From a virus (Duplodnaviria > Heunggongvirae > Uroviricota > Caudoviricetes), in the IMG/VR virus record IMGVR_UViG_3300029415_000001: a DNA stretch of 64,000 bases; one strand, written 5' to 3'. The notes beneath the pieces are model-generated. The model did not search any database. It was given only the letters and a program-made list of their open reading frames with translations, and was not told where the DNA came from. A program made the translations under genes and the position numbers. Each line of letters starts with the position of its first letter. Within the stretch, counting starts at the first letter, position 1. Shown here piece after piece: positions 29,514 through 62,548 of the stretch.

Positions 29514-30707
29514 GTGACCTGGGACGATCACAAAAAGAATTTTGCTCGCCTGGCGCGAGATGGTGGTTACACCATCGCACAGTATGCCGCCGAGTTTAAT
29601 CTTAACCCTAATACCGCACGTCGTTATCTCCGTGCCTTCAAAGAAGACACCAGGACTGCGGACAGCCGCAAGCCAAATAAGCCAGTCAGGAAGCCACTAA
29701 AAAGCATGATCATTGATCACTCTAATGATCAACATGCAGGTGATCATATTGCGGCTGAAATAGCGGAAAAACAGAGAGTTAATGCCGTTGTCAGTGCCGC
29801 AGTCGAGAATGCGAAGCGCCAAAATAAGCGCATAAATGATTGTTCAGATGATCATGACGTGATCACCCGCGCCCACCGGACCTTACGTGATCGCCTGGAA
29901 CGCGACACCCTGGATGATGATGGTGAACGCTTTGAATTCGAAGCTGGCGATTACCTGATAGATAACGTTGAAGCGCGGAAGGCCGCGCGCGCTATGTTGC
30001 GTCGGTCCGGGGCCGATGTTCTGGAAACCACTCTTCTTGAAAAGTCTCTTTCTCATCTCCTTATGCTGGAGAACGCCAGGGATACGTGTATTCGCCTGGT
30101 GCAGGAAATGCGCGATCAGCAAAAAGACGATGATGAAGGTACTCCGCCTGAATACCGTATCGCGAGCATGCTAAACAGCTGTTCCGCGCAGATAAGCAGC
30201 CTGATCAACACCATTTACAGCATCCGGAATAACTATCGAAAAGAAAGCCGGGAGGCGGAAAAGCACGCTTTGTCTATGGGGCAAGCTGGCATTGTTAAGC
30301 TGGCATACGAACGAAAGCGTGAAAATAACTGGTCAGTGCTGGAAGCGGCTGAATTCATCGAGGCGCATGGAGGGAAAGTGCCGCCCCTGATGCTGGAGCA
30401 AATCAAAGCCGATCTGCGTGCTCCTAAGACCAATACCGATGATGAGGAAAACCAAACAGCATCTGGCGCTCCATCACTTGAAGATCTGGATAAAATCGCG
30501 CGAGAACGGGCCGCCAGCCGCCGCGCTGATGCCGCATTGTGGATTGAGCATCGTAGAGAAGAAATTGCCGATATCGTCGATACAGGTGGTTATGGTGATG
30601 TCGATGCGGAAGGCATATCAAACGAAGCATGGCTTGAACAGGATCTGGACGAAGACGAGGAGGAAGACGAAGAAGTTACCCGCAAACTGTACGGGGATGA
30701 TGATTAA
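29514..30707 (+). CDS. pacA: terminase small/recognition subunit PacA
   Basis: 397-aa ORF (same length as P1 PacA as recalled) containing the hexamer-repeat pac site near its 5' end; GTG start with AAAGGAAG RBS. Confidence 0.85.
29707..29866 (+). promoter_or_regulatory. pac packaging site: clustered TGATCA/G hexamers (Dam GATC sites) in two groups
   Basis: TGATCA at 29707, 29714, 29726, 29741 and at 29849, 29860 inside pacA. Confidence 0.8.
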
Positions 30708-32191
30708 TGGCCAGAAGTTGCGTAACGGACCCACGTTGGCGCGAGCTGGTGGCGCTATATCGTTATGACTGGATTGCGGCCGCTGATGTGTTGTTTGGGA
30801 AGACACCAACCTGGCAGCAGGATGAGATCATTGAGTCCACGCAGCAGGACGGCAGTTGGACAAGTGTGACCTCCGGCCATGGTACTGGTAAATCGGATAT
30901 GACGAGTATCATTGCAATACTCTTCATCATGTTTTTCCCCGGCGCTCGCGTCATTCTGGTCGCTAACAAAAGACAGCAAGTCCTTGATGGTATTTTCAAA
31001 TACATAAAGAGCAATTGGGCTACTGCTGTTAGCAGATTCCCGTGGTTGTCGAAGTATTTCATTCTTACAGAAACGTCTTTTTTTGAGGTGACTGGCAAGG
31101 GTGTTTGGACAATATTGATAAAGTCCTGTCGCCCCGGAAATGAGGAGGCGTTGGCTGGTGAACACGCCGATCATCTCTTGTATATCATCGACGAAGCGTC
31201 GGGTGTGAGTGATAAAGCATTCAGTGTGATAACAGGTGCGCTGACCGGTAAGGATAACCGTATTCTGCTTCTTTCCCAGCCTACGCGACCTTCAGGCTAT
31301 TTCTACGATTCACACCACAGACTAGCTATTCGCCCGGGAAATCCTGATGGATTGTTTACTGCGATAATACTGAATAGTGAAGAATCTCCGCTTGTAGATG
31401 CAAAATTTATACGAGCAAAACTTGCGGAGTATGGCGGTCGTGATAACCCCATGTACATGATCAAAGTACGTGGTGAATTCCCCAAATCGCAAGATGGCTT
31501 TCTTCTTGGTCGTGATGAGGTTGAGCGGGCGACGCGGCGAAAGGTCAAGATTGCCAAAGGATGGGGCTGGCTTGCATGTGTGGACGTTGCTGGTGGTACG
31601 GGACGGGATAAGTCCGTTATCAATATCATGATGGTGTCCGGCCAGCGAAATAAACGCCGTGTAATCAACTATCGAATGCTGGAATACACAGACGTTACAG
31701 AAACGCAGCTTGCCGCCAAAATTTTCGCAGAATGTAATCCTGAGCGATTCCCAAATATCACCATAGCGATAGACGGCGATGGCCTGGGTAAAGCAACGGC
31801 GGATCTGATGTACGAGTATTATGGTATTACCGTACAGCGTATACGCTGGGGTAAAAAGATGCATAGCCGTGAAGATAAGAGCCTGTACTTTGATAAACGT
31901 GCTTATGCCAACGTTCAAGCCGCAGAGGCCGTAAAATCTGGTCGTATGAGACTGGATAAGGGTAATGAAACTATTGAGGAAGCGTCGAAAATCCCTGTAG
32001 GGATTAACTCCGCAGGTCAATGGAAGGTGATGAGTAAGGAGGATATGAAGAAAAAACTCAACCTGCACTCACCAGACCATTGGGATACATATTGTTTCGC
32101 TATGCTGGCGGATTATGTTCCCCAGGATGAAGTGCTTAGCGTCGAAGACGAAGCGCAGGTTGATGAAGCTCTGGCATGGCTTAATGAATGA
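30707..32191 (+). CDS. pacB: terminase large subunit PacB
   Basis: 494-aa ORF with terminase ATPase features, start overlapping pacA stop. Confidence 0.8.
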
Positions 32192-32193
32192 AT

Positions 32194-32210
32194 ATTTGCT
32201 CTAATAAATT
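32194..32210 (+). promoter_or_regulatory. C1 operator-like site (ATTTGCTCTAATAAATT) heading the icd/ant-like module
   Basis: Consensus match immediately after pacB stop. Confidence 0.55.
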
Positions 32211-32342
32211 GTGTTTTTTAACTACCGATGTTACATTGAGCCTGACCTCTTGCGCCTTGAGGCATTTTCGGTTTATGCTTATCAGGCACCTCATTAAAAC
32301 GGGTGCCGGGATTGGCCTCCCGCTTAAGTCTAAGGCGATACA

Positions 32343-32367
32343 GACGCCGCTCGCGTCTTTTTTTTGT
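32343..32367 (+). terminator. strong intrinsic terminator (6-bp GC stem, T8 run)
   Basis: agacgc-cgctc-gcgtct followed by tttttttt. Confidence 0.7.
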
Positions 32368-32500
32368 ATCGGCGTACACGCACACCTCTACAATGGTGGG
32401 CTGTATGGGGCTACCTTCGGGTAGGCTGGTTACCTTGGACGCCAGTAAGGCCAACTCCGTACAGTCCACCGCCAGCAAGATTGGTCTCTTCTGCGGTGGT
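32368..32500 (+). ncRNA. candidate structured leader / c4-like antisense element carrying an anti-RBS (CCTTGGACGCC) complementary to the icd-like RBS
   Basis: Hairpins ctacc-ttcg-ggtag and ccaccgc...gcggtgg; CCTTGGAC at 32433-32440 is complementary (one G-U) to GTCTAAGG at the RBS (32512-32519); a same-sense GTCTAAGG copy at 32328-32335. Confidence 0.3.
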
Positions 32501-32530
32501 TACATACCAACGTCTAAGGAGGCTGCCAAT

Positions 32531-32752
32531 ATGGCTACTATCCCTACCCCAACTCATCCTGAATTTATCTGGCGCTTTTACTCCTGCCAAAAACGTCACT
32601 ATCACTTCGTTATTGCACCGACAGAAGATGAGGCCCGCTCTCAGCTTCCTGACGCCCCATGTATTTTCTCTGCCCGTTTTTCCACTGATTCACGCAATTC
32701 TCTCAGTTACTGGTGCCTCCCTGTTAACGCTTCTGCTCAGGAGGGACTATGA
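32531..32752 (+). CDS. Icd-like small protein (73 aa; cell-division-inhibitor family)
   Basis: ATG 32531 with TAAGGAGG RBS; pattern FIWRF...EDEARSQLPDAP...ARF typical of Icd-like proteins; track shows it inside a longer ORF 32303-32752. Confidence 0.55.
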   Translation: MATIPTPTHPEFIWRFYSCQKRHYHFVIAPTEDEARSQLPDAPCIFSARFSTDSRNSLSYWCLPVNASAQEGL

Positions 32753-33867
32753 GAACGTCATTAGTCACCCGTGAAGAGATGATCGAGGCAATTGAACAGC
32801 ACACTGCCTGTATCAGTACCAGGGATATACCAGGCGTTATTGCCAACTACTTCATGATCACCAAACAACTTTACCGGAGAAAGGACAAGAACGCGGTTCA
32901 CCGTATCCTGTTGTCTGATATCCGCGAATACCTGCTCGAACAGGGTCATCTGAATTACGTAACCGCCGCAGCCGAAGCACGCAAGGAGGCACACAGAATG
33001 AAAGCAACTAACGTTAAATCAGAAAAAATTCATGCACCTTCAGTTCAAGAATCGGAGCTGGTGGTTGTTCAGAATCAGTCTGATGAAATTCCCGTTCTGG
33101 AATGGCAGGGAGTGCGTGTAGTGACAACCGAGACTCTTGCTAGAGGGTATGGGACAGAAACAATCCGTATTCGCCAAAATCATCATGAGAACAAAGTACG
33201 CTTTGTTGAAGGGAAGCACTTTTTCAAAGTTGAAGGAGAATCATTGCGCGAGTTGAAGCACAGAGTAGCTTTAAACTACTCTGTAAAAATTGCTCGCAAT
33301 GTTCGCTCACTCACCCTCTGGACAGAACGCGGCGCAGCCCGCCACGCTAAAATGCTCGAAACCGATCAGGCATGGGCATTCTTTGAAAAACTGGAAGACA
33401 GCTACTTCCGACAAAAAGAACAGCAACCGATCGCAATCCCCCAGACGCTTCCTGAAGCCCTACGCCTGGCTGCCGAACTGGCTGAACAAAAGCAACTTCT
33501 GGAACAGAAAGCCCACCAGCTAAATCAGCAGCTGGTGGCCGCCGCTCCTAAAGTCGATTTTGCCGACCGGGTATCAGTAGCTAAAGGGATCCTGATTGGG
33601 AATTTTGCAAAGGTTGTTGGACTTAAACAAAACGCGCTGTTTGTCTGGTTACGGGAGAACGGCATCCTGATAGCGTCCGGTGGACGTAAAAATGTGCCGT
33701 TCCAGCAGTACATCAACGCGGGGTATTTCACGGTGAAAGAAGTGGTGCTGGATGATGAAGATGGCTACCAGATACGGTTGACGCCTCAATTAACGGGTAA
33801 AGGCCAGCAGTGGTTGACGCGTAAACTGCTCGATGCTGGCTTGTTAAAACCGGTGGCGGCTGAATAA
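32749..33867 (+). CDS. antirepressor-like protein (Bro-N/ORF6N-like plus KilA-C/Ant C-terminal domain), with strong internal RBS and ATG at 32998 (possible shorter in-frame product)
   Basis: 372 aa; C-terminal ...FADRVSVAKGILIGNFAKVVGLKQNALFVWLRENGILI... KilAC motif; internal AAGGAGG-9-ATG. Confidence 0.65.
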   Translation: MRTSLVTREEMIEAIEQHTACISTRDIPGVIANYFMITKQLYRRKDKNAVHRILLSDIREYLLEQGHLNYVTAAAEARKEAHRMKATNVKSEKIHAPSVQESELVVVQNQSDEIPVLEWQGVRVVTTETLARGYGTETIRIRQNHHENKVRFVEGKHFFKVEGESLRELKHRVALNYSVKIARNVRSLTLWTERGAARHAKMLETDQAWAFFEKLEDSYFRQKEQQPIAIPQTLPEALRLAAELAEQKQLLEQKAHQLNQQLVAAAPKVDFADRVSVAKGILIGNFAKVVGLKQNALFVWLRENGILIASGGRKNVPFQQYINAGYFTVKEVVLDDEDGYQIRLTPQLTGKGQQWLTRKLLDAGLLKPVAAE

Positions 33868-33899
33868 TGGAAGAATGCCCGGTTGATGCCGGGCATAAT

Positions 33900-34751
33900 T
33901 TATTGCGCGCTTTCGGGGTTGTCGTTTACTGGCTGCCCCTTCTTGGTTTTACGGCTGCGCGTAACTGATGCGGCTGACTTAACCTTTTTCTCTTCGCGAG
34001 TGATGGCAATTTGTTTTTTTACATTTTCAATATCTGCCAGGCGATATATTTTTGCTTGCGGCCAGCGGTCGCAGATGATCGGTTCTATGGAGTCATAAAG
34101 GCTAAATTTTGCTTTTTCGAATTCACCGTTGATGATAATTCCATCACGGAGAGTTTCATCGCAGATAAACACGCCACACAGTGGCACATGGTAACTAACT
34201 GATTTACCATCATTGTAGTTAGGGCTACTGGAAATGTAGTGGACGCGCAGCATTGTTTCGCTAAAGCCGTGTACGCGCATACGGAATTTTTCATCCTCCG
34301 GGTACTGCCTCATTAGCTCTTTTGTTGCTTCCAGGTTCTCTATGTATTTCGCACTGTGCTCATTGAGCCCCGCGCTTTTTTGGATGCGAATGTCCTTATC
34401 AATCAGATGAATAATGCGGCCAGCGGTCATGTTGACGCTGTTCACAGCTTCTGTCTGATAAGTTGTAACCTTACGTACACCGCGAAGGATGTTAGGCACT
34501 GGATATAAAATAGTCTTTGGGATATTGAGGTCTGGGTACTGTTCCAGTTCCCGCGCCATTAAAGTCCATTTATCAATTTCAGCCTGAATGCTGTCAGTTT
34601 CTTTGAACGGTAGAACGACAACCGGGCGTACAGGACGACCGTCGCTGGCTGTATCAACGTGTTGGGCGCGTGCAACAGCTTTTTTTAGAAAGAGATCCCT
34701 GAAGCTGACGAACTCCTGGTACAGTTGTTCGCCGTAGACATAATTTATCAT
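33900..34751 (-). CDS. c1: C1 repressor of lysis
   Basis: 283 aa matching P1 C1 as recalled (MINYVYGEQLYQEFVSFRDLFLKKAVARAQHV...); operators nearby. Confidence 0.95.
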   Translation of the reverse strand: MINYVYGEQLYQEFVSFRDLFLKKAVARAQHVDTASDGRPVRPVVVLPFKETDSIQAEIDKWTLMARELEQYPDLNIPKTILYPVPNILRGVRKVTTYQTEAVNSVNMTAGRIIHLIDKDIRIQKSAGLNEHSAKYIENLEATKELMRQYPEDEKFRMRVHGFSETMLRVHYISSSPNYNDGKSVSYHVPLCGVFICDETLRDGIIINGEFEKAKFSLYDSIEPIICDRWPQAKIYRLADIENVKKQIAITREEKKVKSAASVTRSRKTKKGQPVNDNPESAQ

Positions 34752-34861: not shown

Positions 34862-35071
34862 TTATTGTGAGTCTAACTGGTTAGTTGCCATGAGATATTC
34901 GATTGTGTCAGTGAGGTCATCCAAGTCGTCTTGGGTGATGCGGTACTCCTGATTGGATATCTTTGAGTAGTGTTCAGCAATGGCGCGGGCAGCGTCGGTT
35001 TCGGCAGGGTCTACAGATAAAGCGTTAGAGCAATGTCTAACGTCGTCGATGGTTGGTTGAATGAAAGCCAT
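34862..35071 (-). CDS. coi: C1 inactivator Coi
   Basis: 69-aa ORF immediately upstream of c1 in the same orientation, as in P1. Confidence 0.75.
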   Translation of the reverse strand: MAFIQPTIDDVRHCSNALSVDPAETDAARAIAEHYSKISNQEYRITQDDLDDLTDTIEYLMATNQLDSQ

Positions 35072-35904: not shown

Positions 35905-36936
35905 ATGTCCAATTTACTGACCGTACACCAAAATTTGCCTGCATTACCGGTCGATGCAACGAGTGATGAGGTTCGCAAGAACCTGATGGACATGTTCAGG
36001 GATCGCCAGGCGTTTTCTGAGCATACCTGGAAAATGCTTCTGTCCGTTTGCCGGTCGTGGGCGGCATGGTGCAAGTTGAATAACCGGAAGTGGTTTCCCG
36101 CAGAACCTGAAGATGTTCGCGATTATCTTCTATATCTTCAGGCGCGCGGTCTGGCAGTGAAAACTATCCAGCAACATTTGGGCCAGCTAAATATGCTTCA
36201 TCGTCGGTCCGGTCTGCCACGACCAAGTGACAGCAATGCTGTTTCACTGGTCATGCGACGGATCCGAAAAGAAAACGTTGATGCCGGTGAACGTGCAAAA
36301 CAGGCACTAGCGTTCGAACGCACTGATTTCGACCAGGTTCGTTCACTCATGGAAAATAGCGATCGCTGCCAGGATATACGTAATCTGGCATTTCTGGGGA
36401 TTGCTTATAACACCCTGTTACGTATAGCCGAAATTGCCAGGATCAGGGTTAAAGATATCTCACGTACTGACGGTGGGAGAATGTTAATCCATATTGGCAG
36501 AACGAAAACGCTGGTTAGCACCGCAGGTGTAGAGAAGGCACTTAGCCTGGGGGTAACTAAACTGGTCGAGCGATGGATTTCTGTCTCTGGTGTGGCTGAT
36601 GATCCGAATAACTACTTGTTTTGCCGGGTCAGAAAAAATGGTGTTGCCTCGCCATCACCCACCAGCCAGCTATCAACTCGCGCCCTGGAAGGGATTTTTG
36701 AAGCAACTCATCAATTGATTTACGGCGCTAAGGATGACTCTGGTCAGAGATACCTGGCCTGGTCTGGACACAGTGCCCGTGTCGGAGCCGCGCGAGATAT
36801 GGCCCGCGCTGGAGTTTCAATACCGGAGATCATGCAAGCTGGTGGCTGGACCAATGTAAATATTGTCATGAACTATATCCGTAACCTGGATAGTGAAACA
36901 GGGGCAATGGTGCGCCTGCTGGAAGATGGCGATTAG
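35905..36936 (+). CDS. cre: Cre tyrosine recombinase (variant)
   Basis: 343 aa; near-identical to P1 Cre as recalled, with a few substitutions (VASPSPTSQLS, THQLIYG). Confidence 0.98.
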   Translation: MSNLLTVHQNLPALPVDATSDEVRKNLMDMFRDRQAFSEHTWKMLLSVCRSWAAWCKLNNRKWFPAEPEDVRDYLLYLQARGLAVKTIQQHLGQLNMLHRRSGLPRPSDSNAVSLVMRRIRKENVDAGERAKQALAFERTDFDQVRSLMENSDRCQDIRNLAFLGIAYNTLLRIAEIARIRVKDISRTDGGRMLIHIGRTKTLVSTAGVEKALSLGVTKLVERWISVSGVADDPNNYLFCRVRKNGVASPSPTSQLSTRALEGIFEATHQLIYGAKDDSGQRYLAWSGHSARVGAARDMARAGVSIPEIMQAGGWTNVNIVMNYIRNLDSETGAMVRLLEDGD

Positions 36937-38267: not shown

Positions 38268-38936
38268 GTGGCTTTTCTTTTTTGTAGGGGCGCTATGGAT
38301 AAGAAAATATGCGTTGTTTCGATGAGCGTCGGCAAACCGGCGTCAATGACTGCCGCATGGATCAACAATGAGCTGATAATGGCTGAGCGGACCAGCTACC
38401 CTGAACGCCGCCGCGATATGGAACTCCAGCTGCTGCGCGAATTGCGAGAAAAAGAGGAAAAGGGTTTTATCGTGCTGGTGGAAGAGGAAAACAGCTTTAT
38501 TACCGGTCGAGTTGGCCAGCGTGTAAGGTTGCGTGATCCCTTCATGAACGGCAGACCGGTACTGATTGAAGCAATGCAGATTTACAAGGAACTGGAACGC
38601 CAGAAAGCGATCAAGTTACCGCGCAAGGAATCCGGCAAATACATCCTTCACCAAAGCATCTTCGATTCCGAACATGACAAAAAAGGCGATGAATTTTTCA
38701 ACATCAACTGGAGCGAAATAACGACAGAGCACGTTCTGACGTTGTTATGCTGCTTCGCAACGGAATACAACAACGTTGCAAGCTCCGACTACATCAGGGC
38801 AATGGCTGGAGAAGTTGAGGCACGCCAGGAACCATCGTTACTAAGCCCTCTGATTAACATAATTCGCGGAACCCAAACGCTGGCACAAAAACAGGTGCCT
38901 AAGGGAGTATTAACAGGAAAAGGAAATTATCTATAA
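38268..38936 (+). CDS. mat: particle maturation protein (Mat position)
   Basis: 222-aa ORF following ref as in P1; true start may be Met10; assigned by synteny only. Confidence 0.5.
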   Translation: MAFLFCRGAMDKKICVVSMSVGKPASMTAAWINNELIMAERTSYPERRRDMELQLLRELREKEEKGFIVLVEEENSFITGRVGQRVRLRDPFMNGRPVLIEAMQIYKELERQKAIKLPRKESGKYILHQSIFDSEHDKKGDEFFNINWSEITTEHVLTLLCCFATEYNNVASSDYIRAMAGEVEARQEPSLLSPLINIIRGTQTLAQKQVPKGVLTGKGNYL

Positions 38937-38992
38937 ACGTCAATGCATTAGGGTATACTTCTCCGTAGAACTATAAGTAAATGGAGTAAGTA

Positions 38993-40300
38993 ATGAGCGA
39001 ATATGTTGAGTTAGCATACGCTGCCGCTACAAGCAGGCTTTGTCTATTTACCGGGACTGGCTTTTCAAAGGCAGTCTCGAACGGTGAAGCTCCAACGTGG
39101 AAGGAACTATTAAAAAAAGTTTGCAGCAAAGTTCACAATGCCAAAAAGTTGGAAGACACGTTATTCCCTGATGATAAACCACCAGCACTGAGTCTTGAAG
39201 AAGCCGCACAAATACTATCTTTGAAGCTCAATATTGAGGGTAAGTCGATTTATGATGAAATTGTTGACATCATATCTCCAATTCAACTTGGAGAAGGTAT
39301 ATCAAATATAAAAGACTTTTTCCAAAAAAACTCATTCCGTGTCATTACAACAAATTATGACAAATTGGCTGAATGCTTGGTTGGAGATGAGAGAGTTCAG
39401 TCTATCACTCCAGGATTACCAGTTCCGAAGTATCGTTCTAATGTGAAAATATATCATGTTCATGGCTCTATTGACTCACCAAAAAATATGGTTGTCACTT
39501 CTGAAGACTACTTTAGGTTTATAAACTCTAACACTTATTTTTCACGAAAACTGAGTACAATGCTGCATGAAAATACAGTTGCGATATTAGGATATTCTTT
39601 AAGCGACACAAACCTTAAAGCAATTATAAATGATTACAAAACCTTCTCGAAAGGTAATGCGCTATGCTCTAATATATTTTTCATTTCTCGCAGCAAAGTA
39701 AGCCAAGACATGAAGGATTATTATTTTTATTGTTTTGGGATACGAGTAATTGATAAAACTGAAATAGATTGTTTCTTTGAGCGTCTGAGTAGTAAAATGG
39801 TGTTGATTGAAGACATCATGGCAAGAGCCAGAGAAAGTATAAAAAGAGTTGTTTCAGGGGCTTTTAACTATAGGGATGAATATCTCAAATTAGAGGATTC
39901 TTTTTACCAAATAACATCTTCTATTATGTCGGAAGGTTTCGATTGGAGTGACAATAAAGTTGTTGGTTTTTTTAAAAGGCTAATCGAACAAAAAAGAGAA
40001 TTAACAAGAAAAGATGGGGCGTGGGAACAATATGAGCATCTTGCAAAATGGCTCATATATTTTGGAAGCATCATAGAAATTACTGACACTAAGTATGAAA
40101 ATGTATATTTAGAGGCAGTCGAATACTCAATGTCCAATATGAGCAAAGAAAGGCGGTTAGGTTATTCGTGGCATGCTTATAGAGCTTGGGAAACGCGATG
40201 GTCTTCAATCATTGCTTCAAATCGATTAATTATAAAAAAACACATCGAAGACCTTGGCGTGCTGGATGACGCCAATTCTATAGTGAAAAATATAGTGTAA
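38993..40300 (+). CDS. SIR2-like (SIR2_2 / DHS-like NAD-binding) domain protein, standalone, 435 aa; candidate NAD-depleting defence effector
   Basis: Motifs LFTGTGFS (GAGxS-like), VITTNYD (catalytic Asn), KIYHVHGS (catalytic His); ATG with GGAG RBS; gene visibly AT-rich relative to flanks; sits between mat and lxc. Confidence 0.75.
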   Translation: MSEYVELAYAAATSRLCLFTGTGFSKAVSNGEAPTWKELLKKVCSKVHNAKKLEDTLFPDDKPPALSLEEAAQILSLKLNIEGKSIYDEIVDIISPIQLGEGISNIKDFFQKNSFRVITTNYDKLAECLVGDERVQSITPGLPVPKYRSNVKIYHVHGSIDSPKNMVVTSEDYFRFINSNTYFSRKLSTMLHENTVAILGYSLSDTNLKAIINDYKTFSKGNALCSNIFFISRSKVSQDMKDYYFYCFGIRVIDKTEIDCFFERLSSKMVLIEDIMARARESIKRVVSGAFNYRDEYLKLEDSFYQITSSIMSEGFDWSDNKVVGFFKRLIEQKRELTRKDGAWEQYEHLAKWLIYFGSIIEITDTKYENVYLEAVEYSMSNMSKERRLGYSWHAYRAWETRWSSIIASNRLIIKKHIEDLGVLDDANSIVKNIV

Positions 40301-40322
40301 TTGAAACTCTGCAAACATTTAA

Positions 40323-40342
40323 CGGGCAGCTACAACTGCCCG
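40323..40342. terminator. hairpin between convergent SIR2-like gene and lxc
   Basis: cgggcag-ctacaa-ctgcccg. Confidence 0.45.
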
Positions 40343-40351
40343 ATATATAAA

Positions 40352-40600
40352 TCAATCCGCATTCAGGAGCAATGCATTATCTATGATGATTTGCTCCCAT
40401 TCTTCGAATGCCCGGTCGCGGACGCCCTGGGGAACGCTGTTAGTTTTGAAATCGACGACCGTACGCCATTTCCCATCCGGACGGTACATACGCAGAGCTT
40501 TACTTCCCCCTTCCCTGCGCACCTCAACGTTATGCTTGTCAGCAAACTCTTGTAATGCTCGTAGCGTCCCATGCTTTACTGTGTAGTATCGCTTTTTCAA
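40352..40600 (-). CDS. lxc: Lxc/Bof-like C1 co-repressor modulator (82 aa)
   Basis: 82-aa ORF downstream of ulx and darB in same orientation; assigned by size and synteny. Confidence 0.55.
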   Translation of the reverse strand: MKKRYYTVKHGTLRALQEFADKHNVEVRREGGSKALRMYRPDGKWRTVVDFKTNSVPQGVRDRAFEEWEQIIIDNALLLNAD

Positions 40601-51653: not shown

Positions 51654-52142
51654 GTGGCACAACGCGGTGTAAACAAAGTCATCCTGATTGGTACCCTGGG
51701 ACAAGACCCAGATATCAGGTATATACCAAATGGCGGAGCAGTCGGAAGACTCAGCATCGCAACGAATGAATCATGGCGCGACAAGCAAACAGGCAAACAG
51801 AAAGAGCAAACAGAATGGCATAAAGTCATTTTGTTCGGAAAAATTGCTGAAATTACGAGTGAATATTTACGAAAAGGTTCTCAGGTCTACATCGAAGGGA
51901 AACTTAAAACCCGTAAGTGGACAGATGATGCCGGTGTAGAACGTTACACGACGGAAATTATCGTCAGCCAGGGCGGCACTATGCAAATGATCGGCGCTCG
52001 CCGCGACGATTCACAATTCTCAAATGGCTGGGGGCAGTCAAACCAACCTCAAAACCACCAGCAATACAGCGGTGGCGGTAAACCTCAGAGCAACGCCAAT
52101 AGCGAACCTCCAATGGACTTTGAAGACGATATTCCATTTTGA
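51654..52142 (+). CDS. ssb: single-stranded DNA-binding protein
   Basis: OB-fold SSB ([20 protein letters not shown]), Gly/Gln-rich linker, acidic C-terminal DDIPF tail; GTG start. Confidence 0.95.
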
Positions 52143-53366
52143 GAGGGCTGAAAGTTGCTCGATTACTTAAAAATAACTTTACCTAATTGGTGTAAAAAAA
52201 TGGGCGCAACAAAGCGCCCCAACAATAGAGTTTCAAATTAATAAAAAGGTAATAAATAACATGAAGTTAAATTGAGAAGAGGCAATTTTATTGCCTCTTC
52301 AAAGGTGGCATGAGGGTGCCACCTATATGCGGGCAGTGACATCACTCCCTTCCCGCATATTCTTACCTACCAAAATTAGAATTGGTAGGTCATACCAACA
52401 GCAACGATGTTGTCGGTTGCAACGCCAGATTTTTTGGTAAAATCACTTTCATCGATCAGGTTGATCTTATAGTCAACGAAAGTGGACATATTCTTGTTAA
52501 AGTAATAAGTCGCGCCCACGTCGATGTATTCAACCAGATCCTGGTTACCGAACGCACCAATATTTTCACCGCGAGAGTGTAGGTAAGCGATGGACGGACG
52601 CAGGCCGAAATCAAACTGGTATTGAGCAACGGCTTCAAAGTTTTTCGCCTTGTTCGCGATATGGTCATCACCGAAGACTGTCATATTCTGAGTTTCAGAA
52701 TAAGTTGTAGCCAGGTAAATGTTGTTTGCATCATATTTCAGGCCCGTAGCCCATACTTCAGCAGTTTTACCAGAGGCATTCAGAGGGCTGGCTTTAGCAT
52801 AGGATACCTGTCCATCAGTACGGTCAGATTTTGCATAGGTTGCAGCAACGCCAAATCCTTCATAATCGTAAGTAGCTGACAGACCAAAGCCATCACCATT
52901 AGATTCAACTTCGTCGCGGCCTTTCCAGTTGTTCACTTTTGCAGCACTATCATTTTTACCTTGATACTGCAAAGCAAAGTTCAGACCATCAACCAAGCCG
53001 AAGAAATTATTGTTACGATAGGTCGCGACGCCAGTAGCACGCTGGGTCATAAATACATCAGTCTGAGTCCAGGTATCTCCACCAAACTCCGGCAGCACGT
53101 CAGTCCAAGCGCCAACATCATAAGCTACACCGTAGTTGCGACCATAGTCGAGCGAACCATAATCGCCAAAGCGAAGCCCTGCAAACGCAAGACGAGTTTT
53201 ATCTTTATCAGAACCTTCAGTTTCAGAACGGTTACCTTTAAATTCGTACTCCCACTGACCAAAACCGGTTAACTGGTCATTAATCTGAGTTTCACCTTTG
53301 AAACCCATACGAGCATAAGTTTTATCCCCGTCATCACTAGCCGAAGAAGAGAAGTAATGCTCTGCA

Positions 53367-54695
53367 CTGATGAATCCCCTAATGATTTTGGTAAAAATCA
53401 TTAAGTTAAGGTGGATACACATCTTGTCATATGATCAAATGGTTTCGCGAAAAATCAATAATCAGACAACAAGATGTGCGAACTCGATATTTTACACGAC
53501 TCTCTTTACCAATTCTGCCCCGAATTACACTTAAAACGACTCAACAGCTTAACGTTGGCTTGCCACGCATTACTTGACTGTAAAACTCTCACTCTTACCG
53601 AACTTGGCCGTAACCTGCCAACCAAAGCGAGAACAAAACATAACATCAAACGAATCGACCGATTGTTAGGTAATCGTCACCTCCACAAAGAGCGACTCGC
53701 TGTATACCGTTGGCATGCTAGCTTTATCTGTTCGGGCAATACGATGCCCATTGTACTTGTTGACTGGTCTGATATTCGTGAGCAAAAACGACTTATGGTA
53801 TTGCGAGCTTCAGTCGCACTACACGGTCGTTCTGTTACTCTTTATGAGAAAGCGTTCCCGCTTTCAGAGCAATGTTCAAAGAAAGCTCATGACCAATTTC
53901 TAGCCGACCTTGCGAGCATTCTACCGAGTAACACCACACCGCTCATTGTCAGTGATGCTGGCTTTAAAGTGCCATGGTATAAATCCGTTGAGAAGCTGGG
54001 TTGGTACTGGTTAAGTCGAGTAAGAGGAAAAGTACAATATGCAGACCTAGGAGCGGAAAACTGGAAACCTATCAGCAACTTACATGATATGTCATCTAGT
54101 CACTCAAAGACTTTAGGCTATAAGAGGCTGACTAAAAGCAATCCAATCTCATGCCAAATTCTATTGTATAAATCTCGCTCTAAAGGCCGAAAAAATCAGC
54201 GCTCGACACGGACTCATTGTCACCACCCGTCACCTAAAATCTACTCAGCGTCGGCAAAGGAGCCATGGGTTCTAGCAACTAACTTACCTGTTGAAATTCG
54301 AACACCCAAACAACTTGTTAATATCTATTCGAAGCGAATGCAGATTGAAGAAACCTTCCGAGACTTGAAAAGTCCTGCCTACGGACTAGGCCTACGCCAT
54401 AGCCGAACGAGCAGCTCAGAGCGTTTTGATATCATGCTGCTAATCGCCCTGATGCTTCAACTAACATGTTGGCTTGCGGGCGTTCATGCTCAGAAACAAG
54501 GTTGGGACAAGCACTTCCAGGCTAACACAGTCAGAAATCGAAACGTACTCTCAACAGTTCGCTTAGGCATGGAAGTTTTGCGGCATTCTGGCTACACAAT
54601 AACAAGGGAAGACTTACTCGTGGCTGCAACCCTACTAGCTCAAAATTTATTCACACATGGTTACGCTTTGGGGAAATTATGAGGGGATCTCTCAG
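53367..54695 (+). mobile_element. IS10 (1329 bp) with 9-bp target-site duplication TGCTCTGCA
   Basis: Ends CTGATGAATCCCCTAATGATTTT and ...GAGGGGATCTCTCAG; identical 9-mer at 53358-53366 and 54696-54704. Confidence 0.97.
53474..54682 (+). CDS. IS10 transposase
   Basis: 402 aa beginning MCELDILHDSLYQFCPELHLKRLNSLTLACHALLDCKTLTLTELGRNL. Confidence 0.97.
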   Translation: MCELDILHDSLYQFCPELHLKRLNSLTLACHALLDCKTLTLTELGRNLPTKARTKHNIKRIDRLLGNRHLHKERLAVYRWHASFICSGNTMPIVLVDWSDIREQKRLMVLRASVALHGRSVTLYEKAFPLSEQCSKKAHDQFLADLASILPSNTTPLIVSDAGFKVPWYKSVEKLGWYWLSRVRGKVQYADLGAENWKPISNLHDMSSSHSKTLGYKRLTKSNPISCQILLYKSRSKGRKNQRSTRTHCHHPSPKIYSASAKEPWVLATNLPVEIRTPKQLVNIYSKRMQIEETFRDLKSPAYGLGLRHSRTSSSERFDIMLLIALMLQLTCWLAGVHAQKQGWDKHFQANTVRNRNVLSTVRLGMEVLRHSGYTITREDLLVAATLLAQNLFTHGYALGKL

Positions 54696-55062
54696 TGCTC
54701 TGCATTAACTTTGCCGTACAGATCCAGTTTGTTACCGTCTTTGTTATAGATTTCTGCCGCTTGTGCAGACATTGCCATCAGAACAGATGCTGCAACCGTA
54801 GAAAGTGCCACTGTAATTTTTTTCATTTTTTTTCCTTTAGATTGAACTTTTCAACAGAAAAGAAGTCACTTAGGGGAGATGTTTATCTTTTTTTGATTTA
54901 CATTTCAAGTTTTTTAAATAAATATCGAGATATTTTCGTGATCAGGATCACAAAAACACCATTGCAAACCAATTAATTATTAGGATGGTATTAATAATAT
55001 AGAGTAAAAAATAACACTAAGGCCAAATCGCAACCAGAAACAACAGCGCAGTATAAAACACG

Positions 55063-55831
55063 GGTAGTGCATCCAATTAGTAGAACATGTGTTTTTCGAT
55101 AAACGCTCCGATCACTTTTTCGTGGATCTCAACTGAGCGTGAGAAGCAGATTGTTTTTTACGAGCCAACTGCTTAATGCGGGTGCGTAGCGTCAGATTAT
55201 TACGCTCAATGCGTTGGGTGAATATTTTGCCGGTCAGATGCTTATTCTTCGCCCCCCCCCCGGCCATAGCTGCCCCTGTCATCGCTGGTGAGCATGCCGA
55301 TGTTGAAGGGTGTAAGCAGTGCCAGTAGCTCCCGGCACGCTTGATCGGTTCGGGGACCAAAAGTGTAGGCCAGTACACCGCCTGTTTTGGTGTTGTACGC
55401 GTACCAGAGCCAGTGTTGCCGGGCTTTACTGCCAACGTAGCTCCATTGCTCATCAAGCTCGCAGATAAGCGCCACATCAGCATGGGCAACAGGAGAAGAA
55501 GTTATTCGCGTTGGCGCGAGTTTTTTAAAGTCCGGATGACGGTGCTAATACCAATTTTCAGTGTCCTGGCGGTATCGCGAACCCCGGCACCATTAAAGGC
55601 CATTTCAGTGATCAGCTCTTTCATACCCGGCTTACGTGCTTGATAAGTATAAGTGAGCTGAAACACACGGTGGCAGTCACGGCAGCGAAATCTGTCACGG
55701 CCTTTAGGGTTCTGACCATGGCGGTAAACCCGAGCTAACTGACAACGGGGACAATGAATATTAACGCTGGCTATGAGATAACCTCAAAAGCCCATATTAT
55801 ACATCAGATTCAACTAATTAGAGGCATCACC
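55063..55831 (-). mobile_element. IS1-family element (769 bp), divergent and probably inactive
   Basis: InsA-like frame (…SVNIHCPRCQ…VRDTARTLKIGI…) begins with ATA not ATG; InsB-like frames (MALICELDEQW..., ...YTQRIERNNL...) split by a C10 tract at 55251-55261; imperfect terminal IRs GGTAGTGCATCCAATTAG / GGTGATGCCTCTAATTAG; no clean TSD found. Confidence 0.8.
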
Positions 55832-55931
55832 AGAAATGGCTTGCTTCCATAGCCTAAAGCAAGCCACAACACATTTACCTTAAGTACACAATTAACATAC
55901 CAGAACAGATTATTTTTGCACAATCAGGGAG

Positions 55932-56243
55932 TTAATATACGATCTGGTCTACATGATCACCAAAATCATCATCGTCGTCGTCATCATCGCCACCATCTAC
56001 TGCTGGCCAATCAACAAACCAGCCAGCGTAAAGATGCAGCGTTCGGAGAACATCACTTGCGGGAGCATCAAGGGTGTTAACGAATCCCATATAGCTATTG
56101 GGATTTGCCCCAGCTATGGCTTCAGCGATCATGTCCTCGGTAATGTCACCGGAGATAATGCTTAAACGCTCGGAAACTTCTTCATTATCATCAAATTCGA
56201 TAATGGCATTTCCGCCTAATGGCGCTGCGATTTTAATCTGCAT
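55932..56243 (-). CDS. small acidic protein with poly-Asp tract (103 aa)
   Basis: ORF track; last gene of the minus-strand darA-type operon. Confidence 0.5.
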   Translation of the reverse strand: MQIKIAAPLGGNAIIEFDDNEEVSERLSIISGDITEDMIAEAIAGANPNSYMGFVNTLDAPASDVLRTLHLYAGWFVDWPAVDGGDDDDDDDDFGDHVDQIVY

Positions 56244-59598: not shown

Positions 59599-61514
59599 GC
59601 CGCTACCCCCGCTTTCTGGATTGCTACCAACAGATCAGCCAGGTGGCGAGCTGCGCCGTTAACCAGCTCTTCGTTTTCCTCAAAACGTCCGGCAGCCTGA
59701 AGGGCTGCAATCGCTTCCCGGACATTGCCCCGGGCGTTACGGATCTCCGCCATGTCAGTGCTTTGCATATCCATCACGCTATTGAGATATTCAATGGCTT
59801 TATTAGCCTCTGCATCTGCTTCGCTAACCGTTTCATCAGGCTGTGCCGGGACCGGTTCTGGTTGAGTAATCTCACCGACTTCGGCCTGCAATGCATTGAT
59901 CATGCTCTGCACCATTTTCTCGATGCCAGCGCCCCCTGGAAACGCAATATTGGGGAAAGTTTTTTGAAACTGAGTTTTCAGCATTACGCGGAACTCGTCT
60001 GGTGAGCTGGTGGCCAGCTCCAGAGCTTTTTGTGCATATTTGCCAAACGGACCATTAGTAAGTGTCTTCGCCAGGAAGTCGAAAGAATCCTCGCGAGGCA
60101 ATAACTTCAGGTCGTACTCACTCATTTGCTGATCAGAAAGCGGGGTATCGTAAGTAACAATGCCGTAGCGTGCATATTCATAATACGGGTCACCTTCATC
60201 AGGGCGCGGCAGAATTGCTTTGTTACCTTCAGGTATTGCGCCAGGGGCCGCCGGACGCATTTGCAGGGCATATCGATATGCACCTACAGAGACTTCTGGT
60301 TCAGGCAAAGAGCTATCGGTATCCTCCGCTGATTCAGGTTCGACGTTTTCCGGTTTATGTTCTTCTGGTTGGACCAGATATTCCGATACATTACCCGCTT
60401 TATAGGCTTTAAACAGCTTGCCGATCGCATCTGCCATGTCCACACCCTGTATGGATTTAGCCTTGATCATGTACACGCTGCCATCCGAATCGGTTAACTG
60501 GATATACCCTTCGCCGTCCTCAATGAATTGCTTCATTGATGCACCATTACTGAGCGTCACTTCCCCGTTCATATGCATACGATTTTTGATACTGGCAAGG
60601 CGATCCGTCAGCGCGCGAGAGTGCCCACCAGTCATCCCCGCAGGAGCAATGGTATCGCGCCCACCAGTGCGATTGAGCTGATCAATCTCCGTCTGCAAAC
60701 GCTCATTCTCTTCATAAAGAGAATCCGCTTCCGATGCAACAGCGTTAATTTTCTGCTCCAGATCTGCCTTCTGCCCTTCTACCGCTGCCACCTGATCCGC
60801 GAGGTCGCTCATGGCATCCTCTTTCTGGTCACTGTCAGCCTGTAGTTGGGTTATTTCATCAACAAGGGCTTTTTTCTTCTTCTGCGCACGCTGGAATTTT
60901 GCCGAGTTTTTCTCTGCAAGGTTGGCAAGTTTCATGGTGACCTGCGCCAGCGTCATATCACGTCCACTCATCGGAGCAACGGTGTGAGTAACGTCTTTTT
61001 TATTCAGTAAGAACTGGAAAGCAACCAGCGTATCACTATTGGTGATCCGGTTTTCCGCTGTCGGGCTATGAAACAGAATGCTGATAGTCTGACCATCACT
61101 GAGCGGAATAATGGCTGGCAGGACTGGCAGCCCGTTAACGTTACGTGCCCGGCCAATTTCAGCGCCGCCGATCGCGCGCGCGCCGCTCTGGGCCACATCC
61201 CCCGTTTTATCACTCCCCGCAGAGATTCCGGTACCATTCAGCTTCTGGTTCAATGCCCGGACAAATGCCTGCATGGTCCGGTGTAACTGCAAACGAGTAG
61301 AACTAATCGCCTCCAGTAAATCCGTAGCACACCAGTGGATCGGCGTGTCATAGAAGAACGTAGCCTCGATTTCCTCCAGGGTGTTGGATTCCGTCATCAG
61401 ATAGCGGTCCTCACCGGCCATTAATGCGCGATATTCATCATCAGTCACTGGCGGGGGAAGCACGTCAAGCCCAGGTTTAATCGTCACCCCTTTATTGATA
61501 TTGAACTGTTCCAT
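59595..61514 (-). CDS. darA: DarA-like antirestriction/head protein (639 aa)
   Basis: Length and position match P1 DarA as recalled; coiled-coil central region. Confidence 0.7.
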   Translation of the reverse strand: MEQFNINKGVTIKPGLDVLPPPVTDDEYRALMAGEDRYLMTESNTLEEIEATFFYDTPIHWCATDLLEAISSTRLQLHRTMQAFVRALNQKLNGTGISAGSDKTGDVAQSGARAIGGAEIGRARNVNGLPVLPAIIPLSDGQTISILFHSPTAENRITNSDTLVAFQFLLNKKDVTHTVAPMSGRDMTLAQVTMKLANLAEKNSAKFQRAQKKKKALVDEITQLQADSDQKEDAMSDLADQVAAVEGQKADLEQKINAVASEADSLYEENERLQTEIDQLNRTGGRDTIAPAGMTGGHSRALTDRLASIKNRMHMNGEVTLSNGASMKQFIEDGEGYIQLTDSDGSVYMIKAKSIQGVDMADAIGKLFKAYKAGNVSEYLVQPEEHKPENVEPESAEDTDSSLPEPEVSVGAYRYALQMRPAAPGAIPEGNKAILPRPDEGDPYYEYARYGIVTYDTPLSDQQMSEYDLKLLPREDSFDFLAKTLTNGPFGKYAQKALELATSSPDEFRVMLKTQFQKTFPNIAFPGGAGIEKMVQSMINALQAEVGEITQPEPVPAQPDETVSEADAEANKAIEYLNSVMDMQSTDMAEIRNARGNVREAIAALQAAGRFEENEELVNGAARHLADLLVAIQKAGVAA

Positions 61515-61515
61515 G

Positions 61516-62127: not shown

Positions 62128-62548
62128 CCTGTGCGAGATTTATTACGTAACTTCTGCGGATTTGCTGAGTAACAGGGAAAATCCGATACAACGGGTTAAT
62201 GAACGAGTCGCCATGCGTAACCATGACGTTGAAATGCCACAGTCGCTCTCCTTTACCCATATATTCAGTGGGTATGTACAACCATTCACTGTTTTCGCCC
62301 TGTTCAGCCGACGTCAGACAACGTTGTTCGCCTTCAATCACTGTCGTCGGCTTCTGAACATCGCGGATCCAATATCTGACCGTTGCGCCGCGCAAAAACG
62401 GGAATTTAGACCGGTATTTGAACGGCACCCGGATGAAACCCGATTTAATTTCCACATCACCAAGTTCTAAATGCGTGATGTCCTTGCGTTTTAGCAAATA
62501 GCGATCGGCTAAGGCTAACGCAAGAACGCATACACCCCAGCCAATCAT
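62105..62548 (-). CDS. lydB: LydB-like antiholin (147 aa)
   Basis: ORF overlapping the holin gene stop; synteny. Confidence 0.6.
   Translation of the reverse strand: MIGWGVCVLALALADRYLLKRKDITHLELGDVEIKSGFIRVPFKYRSKFPFLRGATVRYWIRDVQKPTTVIEGEQRCLTSAEQGENSEWLYIPTEYMGKGERLWHFNVMVTHGDSFINPLYRIFPVTQQIRRSYVINLAQDVSDDEK

What the first reader, a model, noticed from the sequence alone, without database searches (positions are those of the whole stretch)
32194..33867. immI-type module (operator, structured leader with anti-RBS, Icd-like, Ant-like with internal start) adjacent to c1
After the pacB stop comes a C1 operator, a strong terminator, a structured leader, a 73-aa Icd-like gene with a strong RBS, and a 372-aa KilA-C antirepressor-like gene with a strong internal RBS/ATG at 32998 giving a shorter in-frame product of about 289 aa. 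This mirrors P1 immI (c4 RNA, icd, ant1/ant2), which I recall at a distant map position, not next to immC. The leader holds a same-sense copy of the RBS core (GTCTAAGG, 32328), a complementary element (CCTTGGAC, 32433) and the target at the icd RBS (32512), resembling the a1/a'/a2 logic of c4 antisense control.
Basis: partly seen in the sequence, partly recalled or inferred. Interest (0 to 1): 0.6.

Follow-up and report, generated by a model that had tools for sequence, protein, structure and literature searches.

The report
Second antirepressor immunity module beside c1
This P1-like phage-plasmid carries, between its packaging gene pacB and its main repressor gene c1, an extra copy of the P1 "immI" switch, in which a small antisense RNA guards an antirepressor; the module is intact and apparently functional, but it is common in natural P1 relatives and of an already known kind.

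Summary
Window 32192-33899 is a 1.7-kb insertion. Reference P1 has only 24 bp between the pacB and c1 stop codons.

The insertion holds, in order:
- a C1 operator (32195-32211);
- an IsrK-family terminated leader RNA (32286-32363, Rfam 60.8 bits);
- a C4 antisense RNA (32389-32476, 75.9 bits);
- icd (32531-32752, 80% identical to P1 Icd);
- ant1/ant2 (32749-33867, 55% identical to P1 Ant1). The internal start is at codon 84, exactly as in P1 ant2.

It is P1's "b" set, not "a". The second set is also present: UUGGCCU and UUGGUCU pair with AGGCCAA in C4.

Across about 12 alleles the leader, C4 and icd-leader sites change together. The cognate pairing is always the strongest.

The module is not new. 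At least 80% of it occurs in 269 PLSDB plasmids and 279 of 5,426 complete E. coli genomes. It is also in phages RCS47, JL22 and 673R5, and one paper mentions it in passing. Near-identical genomes also keep the canonical immI, with a different C4 code.

Verdict: interpretation supported; a new member of a known kind; modest interest.

The parts
32195..32211 (+). C1 repressor operator (analogue of P1 Oc4/Op51)
   Evidence: TTTGCTCTAATAAATTG has 2 outer mismatches to the consensus and resembles P1 Oc4, AATGCTCTAATAAATTT. It is invariant in all pacB/c1 alleles examined. The adjacent C1 is 99% identical to P1 C1. Binding was not tested.
32209..32237 (+). Putative outer, C1-controlled promoter (-35 TTGTGT 32209-14, 17-nt spacer, -10 TACATT 32232-37)
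   Evidence: The -35 overlaps the last 3 bp of the operator, the same geometry as P1 P2c4/P51a with Oc4. It is conserved in sister alleles. It falls below the threshold of the consensus scan, so it is inferred only.
32250..32279 (+). Putative inner promoter (-35 TTGCGC 32250-55, 18-nt spacer, -10 TATGCT 32274-79), with start near 32286
   Evidence: It is positionally equivalent to the strong TTGACT-18-TATATT promoter in front of isrK in Stx phages, and lies 6 nt upstream of the 5' end of the IsrK model match. It was not detected by the scan, so it is inferred.
32286..32366 (+). IsrK-family leader RNA: two hairpins, a1 (TTGGCCT 32312-18, in the loop of hairpin 2), b1 (GTCTAAGG 32328-35, single-stranded), and an intrinsic terminator (32342-32358 plus T8)
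   Evidence: Rfam RF01394 scores 60.8 bits against a gathering score of 50. The fold shows a1 in a loop. The terminator was found by the scan.
32389..32476 (+). C4 antisense RNA (predicted mature form about 32395-32473, 79 nt): b' CCUUGGAC 32433-40 in the loop of hairpin 2, a' AGGCCAA 32448-54 in the joint
   Evidence: Rfam RF01695 scores 75.9 bits. The minimum-free-energy fold is the family fold, z=-4.1. In 11 of 23 pairs both sides change and the pair is kept, across 12 alleles.
32481..32522 (+). C4 target in the icd leader: a2 TTGGTCT 32481-87; b2 GTCTAAGG 32512-19, overlapping the icd Shine-Dalgarno AAGGAGG 32516-22
   Evidence: The complementarity can be read directly from the sequence. 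The paired a...b signature occurs only here and in the leader in the 64-kb window. Cognate duplex energy is -22.2 kcal/mol against -12.7 to -18.0 for non-cognate icd leaders.
32531..32752 (+). icd (73 aa, cell-division inhibitor homologue)
   Evidence: 80% identical to P1 Icd, E=3e-41. NF033153 scores 49.8 bits. dN/dS is 0.02-0.2 against sister alleles.
32749..33867 (+). ant1 (372 aa); its ATG overlaps the icd stop (ATGA)
   Evidence: 55% identical to P1 Ant1, E=2e-129, and mosaic. Pfam finds ORF6N at 116-202 and ANT/KilAC at 260-361. phrog_63 E=1e-130. dN/dS is 0.22-0.37.
32998..33867 (+). ant2 (289 aa, in-frame internal start at codon 84 with its own AAGGAGG at 32983-89)
   Evidence: The codon position and the surrounding RKEAHRM motif are the same as at the P1 ant2 start.
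33875..33896 (.). Hairpin between the convergent ant and c1 genes, probably a bidirectional terminator
   Evidence: The scan found a stem of 9 pairs. The fold gives -18 kcal/mol, z=-4.2. The U-tracts are weak on both strands.

Best explanation
This is a complete, functional paralogue of the P1 immI operon, inserted between pacB and c1.

In the lysogen, C1 sits on the operator at 32195-32211 and shuts the outer promoter. A weaker inner promoter starts transcripts near 32286. Most of these stop at the terminator and give an IsrK-like RNA of about 80 nt that carries copies (a1, b1) of the C4 target. The transcripts that read through are processed to a C4 RNA of about 79 nt.

Two exposed segments of C4 pair with the icd leader: the hairpin-2 loop CCUUGGAC and the joint AGGCCAA pair with b2 and a2. 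This covers the icd ribosome-binding site. Without icd translation, the translationally coupled ant1 is not made, and, as in P1, downstream transcription is curtailed.

Icd and Ant1/Ant2 are made in three situations: when C1 is lost, when the DNA enters a cell that lacks the matching C4, or when the leader RNA titrates C4. Ant then inactivates C1 and pushes the element towards lytic growth.

The a/b sequence code is allele-specific. Here it differs from the code of the canonical immI carried by near-identical genomes. The two modules are therefore independent locks.

Shown here: sequence and structure family membership, the three-way complementarity and its covariation, and purifying selection. 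Inferred from P1, P7, P4 and Gifsy-1 work: operator binding, promoters, RNase P processing, the polarity mechanism, Ant-C1 binding, and the decoy role of the leader.
For: - Rfam C4 and isrK both score above their gathering scores.
- Element-by-element parallel with the annotated P1 immI: Oc4, the P51a/b promoters, a1, b1, c4, a2, b2, icd, ant1 and ant2.
- Icd is 80% and Ant 55% identical to P1, with the ATGA coupling and the codon-84 Ant2 start conserved.
- In about 12 alleles the a and b sites differ, in different combinations. They are always matched among the leader, C4 and the icd leader.
- For every C4, the cognate target gives the best duplex energy, with one tie between two alleles that share the b site. 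The window C4 gives -22.2 on its own icd leader and -14.5 on the canonical 673R5 leader. The canonical C4 gives -8.5 on the window leader and -18.9 on its own.
- The C4 stems covary.
- The operator and both promoter-like boxes are invariant in all pacB/c1 alleles.
- C1 is 99% identical to P1 C1.
- dN/dS is well below 1 for both genes.
- In Gifsy-1, IsrK supplied in trans raises translation of the downstream antirepressor 139-fold. Mutating G28 of IsrK abolishes this; by my alignment to the Rfam consensus, G28 lies in the UUGG of the a1-like loop (PMC4825925).
Against: - No expression or binding data exist for this allele.
- Both promoters are weak by consensus (7 of 12 matches) and the promoter scan missed them.
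- This allele pairs through G-U wobbles (one in b1 and b2, one in a2), whereas most sister alleles pair perfectly.
- The central third of Ant is an ORF6N domain that P1 Ant lacks, so its partner could differ from C1.
- In P4, the homologous leader site acts in transcription termination rather than as a decoy, so the role of the leader RNA is open.
Confidence: 0.8

Rival explanations
1. The parts are the same, but the leader RNA is not a decoy. As at P4 seqA, C4 pairs with a1/b1 on the nascent transcript and promotes premature termination. The leader would then be an autoregulatory target that limits read-through into C4-icd-ant, rather than an activator of ant.
For: The Rfam C4 and isrK models detect relatives of P4 CI and seqA (PMC10111431). 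a1 and b1 lie immediately upstream of a strong intrinsic terminator. The cis fold pairs a1/b1 with a'/b'.
Against: In Gifsy-1, extra IsrK in trans activates the downstream antirepressor rather than repressing it. The terminator here is intrinsic and needs no RNA factor. The two roles are not mutually exclusive.
Confidence: 0.3
2. The module is regulated as described, but its Ant does not target the element's own C1. The ORF6N-KilAC protein would act on other repressors or on DNA, for example to induce or interfere with competing prophages. The module would then be a weapon or defence cassette rather than part of the element's own lysis-lysogeny switch.
For: The middle third of Ant is replaced by an ORF6N domain that P1 Ant lacks. 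Phage records name the protein 'DNA binding protein Roi'. The same leader cassette drives unrelated cargo, a Rha-type regulator in Stx phages and a Bro-N protein in a Klebsiella plasmid. Genomes that carry the module keep a canonical immI as well.
Against: The Ant1-specific N-terminus is well conserved with P1 Ant (about two-thirds identical by eye) and the KilAC C-terminus nearly identical, and the Ant1/Ant2 nesting is kept. The module sits under a C1 operator next to c1.
Confidence: 0.2
3. The module is a decaying or neutral hitch-hiking insertion with no present function.
For: Reference P1 and 314 PLSDB plasmids do without it. Insertion sequences interrupt it in a few records (H38, H63).
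Against: Both ORFs are intact with dN/dS of 0.02-0.37. The RNA structure and the three-way complementarity are kept through compensatory changes. The module is present in 279 of 5,426 complete E. coli genomes, 123 records at 99% identity or more.
Confidence: 0.03

Closest known systems
P1/P7 immI operon (Oc4/Op51, P51a/b, a1 b1, c4, a2 b2, icd, ant1/ant2)
   Same: The order and logic of all elements are the same: a C1 operator overlapping the -35 of the outer promoter; a C4 family RNA; duplicated a and b targets on both sides of C4, with b2 over the icd ribosome-binding site; a 73-aa Icd (80% identical); ATGA coupling to ant1; ant2 starting at codon 84; and a nearly identical KilAC C-terminus.
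   Different: The map position differs: between pacB and c1, convergent with c1, instead of between sim and kilA-repL. The leader is an IsrK-family RNA with a strong intrinsic terminator rather than the c4-a1b1 motif (RF03163), which was found only in P1/P7-type copies. The a/b code differs. The central third of Ant is an ORF6N domain. Leader DNA similarity to P1 is too low for megablast.
Gifsy-1 isrK-orf45-anrP locus of Salmonella (PMC4825925)
   Same: The leader belongs to the same Rfam family (RF01394). A short terminated RNA and a read-through mRNA come from one promoter. An antirepressor lies downstream, and its translation depends on an upstream ORF through AUGA coupling. The leader pairs with a region about 130 nt downstream.
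   Different: Here the region after the leader is a recognised C4 RNA followed by a true icd gene. In Gifsy-1 the paper treats that region as a 45-codon ORF and never mentions c4. The window module is under a P1 C1 operator. The downstream effect in Gifsy-1 (AntQ antitermination) has no counterpart here.
isrK-C4 leader cassette of Stx-converting Oslovirus phages (e.g. LC710660, Ss-VASD)
   Same: This is the closest DNA relative of the leader outside P1-like elements: 78-79% identity over isrK, C4, a2/b2, the ribosome-binding site and the first five codons (MATIP). The layout is the same and both RNAs are annotated in LC710660.
   Different: The cargo there is a single Rha-type regulator of about 215 aa, not icd-ant. 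There is no C1 operator. The promoter is a strong consensus one. The a/b codes differ.
Satellite phage P4 immunity (CI RNA with seqA and seqC)
   Same: A processed, stable RNA with exposed sequences complementary to sites both upstream and downstream of its own gene. The Rfam C4 and isrK models detect CI and seqA relatives (PMC10111431).
   Different: P4 uses the pairing to cause premature transcription termination of its early operon, and has no icd-ant cargo or C1 operator. No P4 sequence was compared here.

Membership tests
C4 antisense RNA (Rfam RF01695) | Covariance-model score at or above the gathering threshold, and the family fold (long outer stem, two internal hairpins, unpaired joint) | tested here: met
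   75.9 bits against 45. The minimum-free-energy fold equals the family fold, z=-4.1. In 11 of 23 pairs both sides change and the pair is kept.
C4 antisense RNA (Rfam RF01695) | Exposed loop and joint complementary to a target that overlaps the ribosome-binding site of the downstream gene | tested here: met
   b' pairs with b2 over 9 bp (one G-U) across the Shine-Dalgarno. a' pairs with a2 over 7 bp (one G-U).
C4 antisense RNA (Rfam RF01695) | Stable RNA of about 77-80 nt, processed from the operon transcript by RNase P | not testable with these tools
   Only the acceptor-like stem with a 3' CCACCGCC tail can be seen in the sequence.
P1-type immI operon | C1 operator overlapping a promoter upstream of c4 | tested here: inconclusive
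   An operator-like site is present and invariant across alleles. The promoter boxes match only 7 of 12 positions and the scan missed them. Binding was not tested.
P1-type immI operon | icd homologue translationally coupled to ant1, with a nested ant2 | tested here: met
   The ATGA overlap is at 32749-52. The internal ATG with its own Shine-Dalgarno is at codon 84.
P1-type immI operon | a1/b1 carried on the c4-a1b1 leader motif (RF03163) | tested here: not met
   There is no RF03163 match in the window. An isrK match occupies that position. RF03163 was found only in P1/P7-type copies.
P1-type immI operon | Location between sim and kilA-repL | tested here: not met
   The module lies between pacB and c1. 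The canonical site lies outside this window, but it is occupied in the two complete genomes examined that carry this module at 99.7-99.9% identity.
IsrK RNA (Rfam RF01394) | Covariance-model score at or above the gathering threshold, two 5' hairpins and an intrinsic terminator | tested here: met
   60.8 bits against 50. Fold; terminator.
IsrK RNA (Rfam RF01394) | Hfq binding and trans-activation of the downstream antirepressor | not testable with these tools
   Known only for Salmonella IsrK (PMC4825925).
Phage antirepressor Ant (Pfam ANT/KilAC, PHROG 63) | KilAC domain and full-length match to the Ant family | tested here: met
   PF03374 scores 107.9 bits. phrog_63 E=1.2e-130 over residues 1-372.
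Phage antirepressor Ant (Pfam ANT/KilAC, PHROG 63) | Binds and inactivates the C1 repressor | not testable with these tools
   Inferred from the close similarity of the N- and C-terminal thirds to P1 Ant1.
Icd-like cell-division inhibitor (NF033153) | Profile score above the curated cut-off | tested here: met
   49.8 bits against 25.

The most novel reading that the evidence does not exclude
Natural P1-like phage-plasmids run two (sometimes three) orthogonal RNA-coded immunity locks. Each lock is a C4 RNA with its own two-part a/b address. The addresses are shuffled combinatorially among P1-like elements, Stx phages and satellites.

In the IsrK-type version, the terminated leader RNA would be a dedicated sponge for its own C4. 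C1 de-repression of the outer promoter would then flood the cell with sponge and convert a graded loss of C1 into an all-or-none burst of Ant next to c1.

This would also reinterpret Salmonella IsrK/'orf45' as a C4 sponge and C4 pair.
Probability: 0.35. Interest if true: 0.5.

Novelty: new member of a known kind. Interest (0 to 1): 0.3.

Why it matters
P1 immunity is taught from the laboratory reference, which has one immI. Among sequenced natural P1-like plasmids, the pacB/c1 site carries this second antirepressor module nearly as often as it is empty: 269 PLSDB records against 314.

Near-identical genomes carry both modules with non-cross-reacting C4 codes. That bears on which P1-like elements can coexist, superinfect or induce one another. 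This matters because these phage-plasmids spread resistance genes.

The natural allele series is a ready-made compensatory-mutation data set for the C4/IsrK pairing rules. It links three literatures that are usually cited separately: P1 c4, P4 CI/seqA and Salmonella IsrK.

No new principle is involved.

Tried and rejected
- Wrong frame. My first protein searches for the small ORF used 32532 instead of 32531 and gave 'no hit'. These are void. The correct frame gives clear Icd homology.
- Genome scan. Allele diversity was obtained from PLSDB and phage hits instead.
- NCBIfam has no model that hits either Ant protein.
- Promoter scan. The consensus scan did not report either proposed promoter. 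They rest only on positional homology with P1 and with Stx-phage copies.
- A third promoter between the terminator and C4 (TTGTAT...TACAAT). Rejected: the spacer is 19 nt, transcription would start inside C4, and the boxes are absent in sister alleles.
- Other C4 targets. No other paired a...b site exists in the 64-kb window.
- Literature. Four searches found only a one-sentence mention of an ant insertion between pacB and c1 (PMC6906374). I found no analysis of its RNAs.
- Minus-strand ORFs across the leader (32218-32478 and 32411-32605). They lie over the RNA genes, so I did not pursue them and treat them as probably spurious.
Full report
**What the window is.** The ORFs around the finding are those of a P1-like (Punavirus) phage-plasmid: pacA 29514-30707, pacB 30707-32191, c1 33900-34751 (minus strand), coi 34862-35071 (minus strand) and cre 35905-36936. 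C1 is 99% identical to P1 C1. In reference P1 (NC_005856) pacB stops at 93206 and the convergent c1 stops at 93231, so only 24 bp separate them. An alignment of the junctions shows that window 32192-33899 is an insertion that starts right after the pacB stop and ends just before the c1 stop.

**Checking the observation.**
- Operator: TTTGCTCTAATAAATTG (32195-32211) differs from the C1 operator consensus only at its two outer positions and resembles P1 Oc4/Op51, AATGCTCTAATAAATTT. The window has 17 such sites against 0.34 expected by chance.
- Terminator: stem 32342-32358 followed by eight T, found by the scan.
- The 73-aa ORF runs 32531-32752. My first searches used the wrong frame and are void. 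In the correct frame it is 80% identical to P1 Icd (E=3e-41) and scores 49.8 bits on NF033153 against a cut-off of 25.
- The 372-aa ORF (32749-33867) overlaps the icd stop in ATGA. It is 55% identical to P1 Ant1 (E=2e-129), matches phrog_63 'anti-repressor Ant' over its full length (E=1e-130), and has ORF6N and ANT/KilAC domains.
- The internal ATG at 32998 is codon 84. P1 ant2 starts at the same codon, within the same RKEAHRM motif.

**The RNAs.** A gathering-threshold Rfam scan of the whole window finds a C4 antisense RNA at 32389-32476 (75.9 bits against 45). Immediately upstream, at 32286-32363, it finds an IsrK-family RNA (60.8 bits against 50). By alignment with the annotated P1 c4, the mature form would be about 32395-32473. 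That segment alone folds into the family structure with z=-4.1.

**The two complementarity sets.** In the P1 annotation, a1/a2 (TTGACAG) pair with the unpaired joint of c4. b1/b2 (GTTAGTG) pair with the loop of its second hairpin, and b2 lies on the icd ribosome-binding site. The window has both sets in the same order.

| Element | Sequence | Coordinates |
|---|---|---|
| a1 | TTGGCCT | 32312-32318 |
| b1 | GTCTAAGG | 32328-32335 |
| b' (C4 hairpin-2 loop) | CCTTGGAC | 32433-32440 |
| a' (C4 joint) | AGGCCAA | 32448-32454 |
| a2 | TTGGTCT | 32481-32487 |
| b2 | GTCTAAGG | 32512-32519 |

b2 overlaps the icd Shine-Dalgarno AAGGAGG (32516-32522). In the whole 64-kb window the paired a...b signature occurs only at these two places.

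**Comparative evidence that the pairing is real.** I collected modules from phages RCS47, JL22 and 673R5, from nine PLSDB plasmids, from six loci of the genome collection, and from P1. Rfam finds C4 in all of them. The upstream partner is isrK in every non-P1-type module and c4-a1b1 (RF03163) in the P1/P7-type ones.
- The a site occurs as GGCC, GAGA, GGAA, GGTC or GGCG.
- The b site occurs as GTCTAAGG, GTCAAAGG, GCAAAAGG or CTAAACGG.
- The two sites occur in different combinations, and in each allele the leader copy, the C4 complement and the icd-leader copy agree.
- In a 12 x 12 matrix of duplex energies, the cognate combination is the best in every row, with one tie between two alleles that share the b site.
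- The C4 stems also covary: in 11 of 23 pairs both sides change and the pair is kept.
- The window allele pairs through one G-U wobble in b1 and b2 and one in a2. Most sister alleles pair perfectly.

**Selection and regulation.** dN/dS against sister alleles is 0.02-0.2 for icd and 0.22-0.37 for ant, so both genes are under purifying selection. The operator and two promoter-like elements are invariant in all pacB/c1 alleles. These elements are TTGTGT-17-TACATT, whose -35 overlaps the operator as at P1 P51a/Op51, and TTGCGC-18-TATGCT, which lies 6 nt upstream of the IsrK 5' end. The inner element aligns with a strong TTGACT-18-TATATT promoter in Stx-phage copies. Both window promoters are weak by consensus and the scan missed them, so they are inferences. 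The full leader folds better than shuffled controls (z=-3.6). Its minimum-free-energy structure pairs a1/b1 with a'/b' in cis, while the centroid keeps the C4 fold. This recalls the alternative structures described for Gifsy-1 isrK-orf45.

**Is there a second module in the genome?** The window does not reach the canonical immI site. The P1 tRNA genes lie at window 5-7 kb, and only one C4 is found in the window. Two complete genomes with a 99.7-99.9% identical module also keep a canonical immI between simB and kilA-repL: phage vB_EcoM-673R5 and plasmid NZ_CP027133.1. That copy has a c4-a1b1 leader and a different code, a=TTAGCAG and b=ACGAATG. Cross-pairing energies between the two modules (-8.5 and -14.5) are far from the cognate values (-18.9 and -22.2), so they should not cross-react. 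Other P1-like plasmids carry IsrK-type modules at the canonical site (with an operator) or after ref (without one).

**How common it is and what is known.**
- At least 80% of the query is present in one place in 269 PLSDB plasmids and in 279 of 5,426 complete E. coli genomes.
- 314 PLSDB records have the empty P1-type junction.
- RefSeq annotates the genes as 'host cell division inhibitor Icd-like protein' and 'phage antirepressor KilAC domain-containing protein'. It places a small 'ash family protein' ORF over C4.
- Venturini et al. 2019 note in one sentence that two short ORFs and an ant gene are inserted between pacB and c1, as in RCS47 (PMC6906374).
- The closest relatives of the leader outside P1-like elements are Stx-converting Oslovirus phages, at 78-79% identity through isrK, C4, a2/b2, the ribosome-binding site and the first five codons. 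There the cargo is a Rha-type regulator, and one record annotates both RNAs.
- A 2023 paper states that the Rfam C4 and isrK models detect relatives of P4 CI RNA and seqA (PMC10111431).
- The Gifsy-1 IsrK paper never mentions c4. Its 'orf45' is conserved as nucleotides but not as amino acids and yields a processed RNA of about 80 nt. This is what a C4 gene would look like. A Klebsiella plasmid has isrK and C4 directly in front of a Bro-N gene.

**Mechanism.** The best-supported reading is the P1 immI mechanism carried over to this module.
- C1 represses the outer promoter.
- The inner promoter gives mostly terminated leader RNA and some read-through, which supplies C4.
- C4 occludes the icd ribosome-binding site. 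This blocks the coupled ant1 and, as in P1, limits downstream transcription.
- Loss of C1, or entry into a cell without the cognate C4, releases Icd and Ant1/Ant2. Ant then inactivates C1.

The role of the leader RNA is the least certain step. It could be a decoy for C4, as Gifsy-1 genetics suggests, or a termination-control site, as in P4. The target of the ORF6N-containing Ant is inferred, not shown.

**Verdict.** This is a further member of the C4-guarded antirepressor modules: a mosaic of an IsrK-type leader cassette with P1-type icd-ant cargo under a C1 operator. It is new relative to reference P1, but widespread, routinely annotated at the protein level, and mentioned in the literature. 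Interest is modest. The unstudied point is that natural P1-like elements commonly run two orthogonal C4/Ant locks.

Noticed in passing
window 32303-32752 (+), especially 32393-32530: The icd reading frame is open upstream through the whole C4 gene, back to a GTG at 32303. An ATG at 32393, inside the conserved C4 5' end (CAAUGGUGG), is in frame with icd. In sister alleles RefSeq annotates a 39-aa 'ash family protein' ORF over C4 that stops before icd. It may be spurious, or it may be the counterpart of the translated 'orf45' of Gifsy-1.
   Followed up: partly
Gifsy-1 isrK-orf45-anrP (PMC4825925); L021 2492-3412; L023 2500-3389: The published 'orf45' between IsrK and the antirepressor anrP is probably a C4 RNA. 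Its nucleotides are conserved but its amino acids are not, it gives a processed RNA of about 80 nt, and it pairs with the IsrK middle hairpin. Every isrK hit I examined is followed 24-45 nt later by a C4 hit. The paper does not mention c4. I could not fetch the Gifsy-1 sequence to test this directly.
   Followed up: partly
L023 2742-3389 and L024, against window 32516-32545: The Stx-phage Rha-type regulator and the window Icd share the ribosome-binding site and the first five codons (MATIP), then diverge. The recombination joint between the portable leader cassette and its cargo therefore lies just inside the coding region.
   Followed up: partly
L013 and L016 (after ref); L015 and L019 (canonical immI site): P1-like plasmids also carry IsrK-type C4 modules at two other sites. 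After ref, the module has no C1 operator and a different 313-aa downstream gene. At the canonical sim/kilA site, it has an operator and an ORF6N-KilAC Ant. A single element could hold up to three modules.
   Followed up: partly
window 53412-53481 (-): A perfect RNA-OUT match (98.8 bits) indicates an IS10-type element. The block 52049-56014 is absent from the related plasmid NZ_CP027133.1.
   Followed up: no
window 5025-5097, 5103-5175, 7179-7251 (+): Three tRNA genes lie here, presumably the P1 tRNA cluster. This places the window start near P1 map position 60 kb.
   Followed up: no
window 33868-33905: The ant and c1 genes converge on a single stable hairpin (-18 kcal/mol) with weak U-tracts on both strands. 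Read-through from a de-repressed ant operon would be antisense to c1. No evidence was sought.
   Followed up: no
whole window against NZ_CP027133.1: Only 57% of window 31-mers occur in the plasmid whose module is 99.9% identical. Blocks of more than 200 nt without shared 31-mers are 5242-5481, 5966-7200, 20351-20596, 30421-30675, 30748-31574, 38792-40521, 52049-56014 and 59893-64000. The backbone is strongly mosaic.
   Followed up: no
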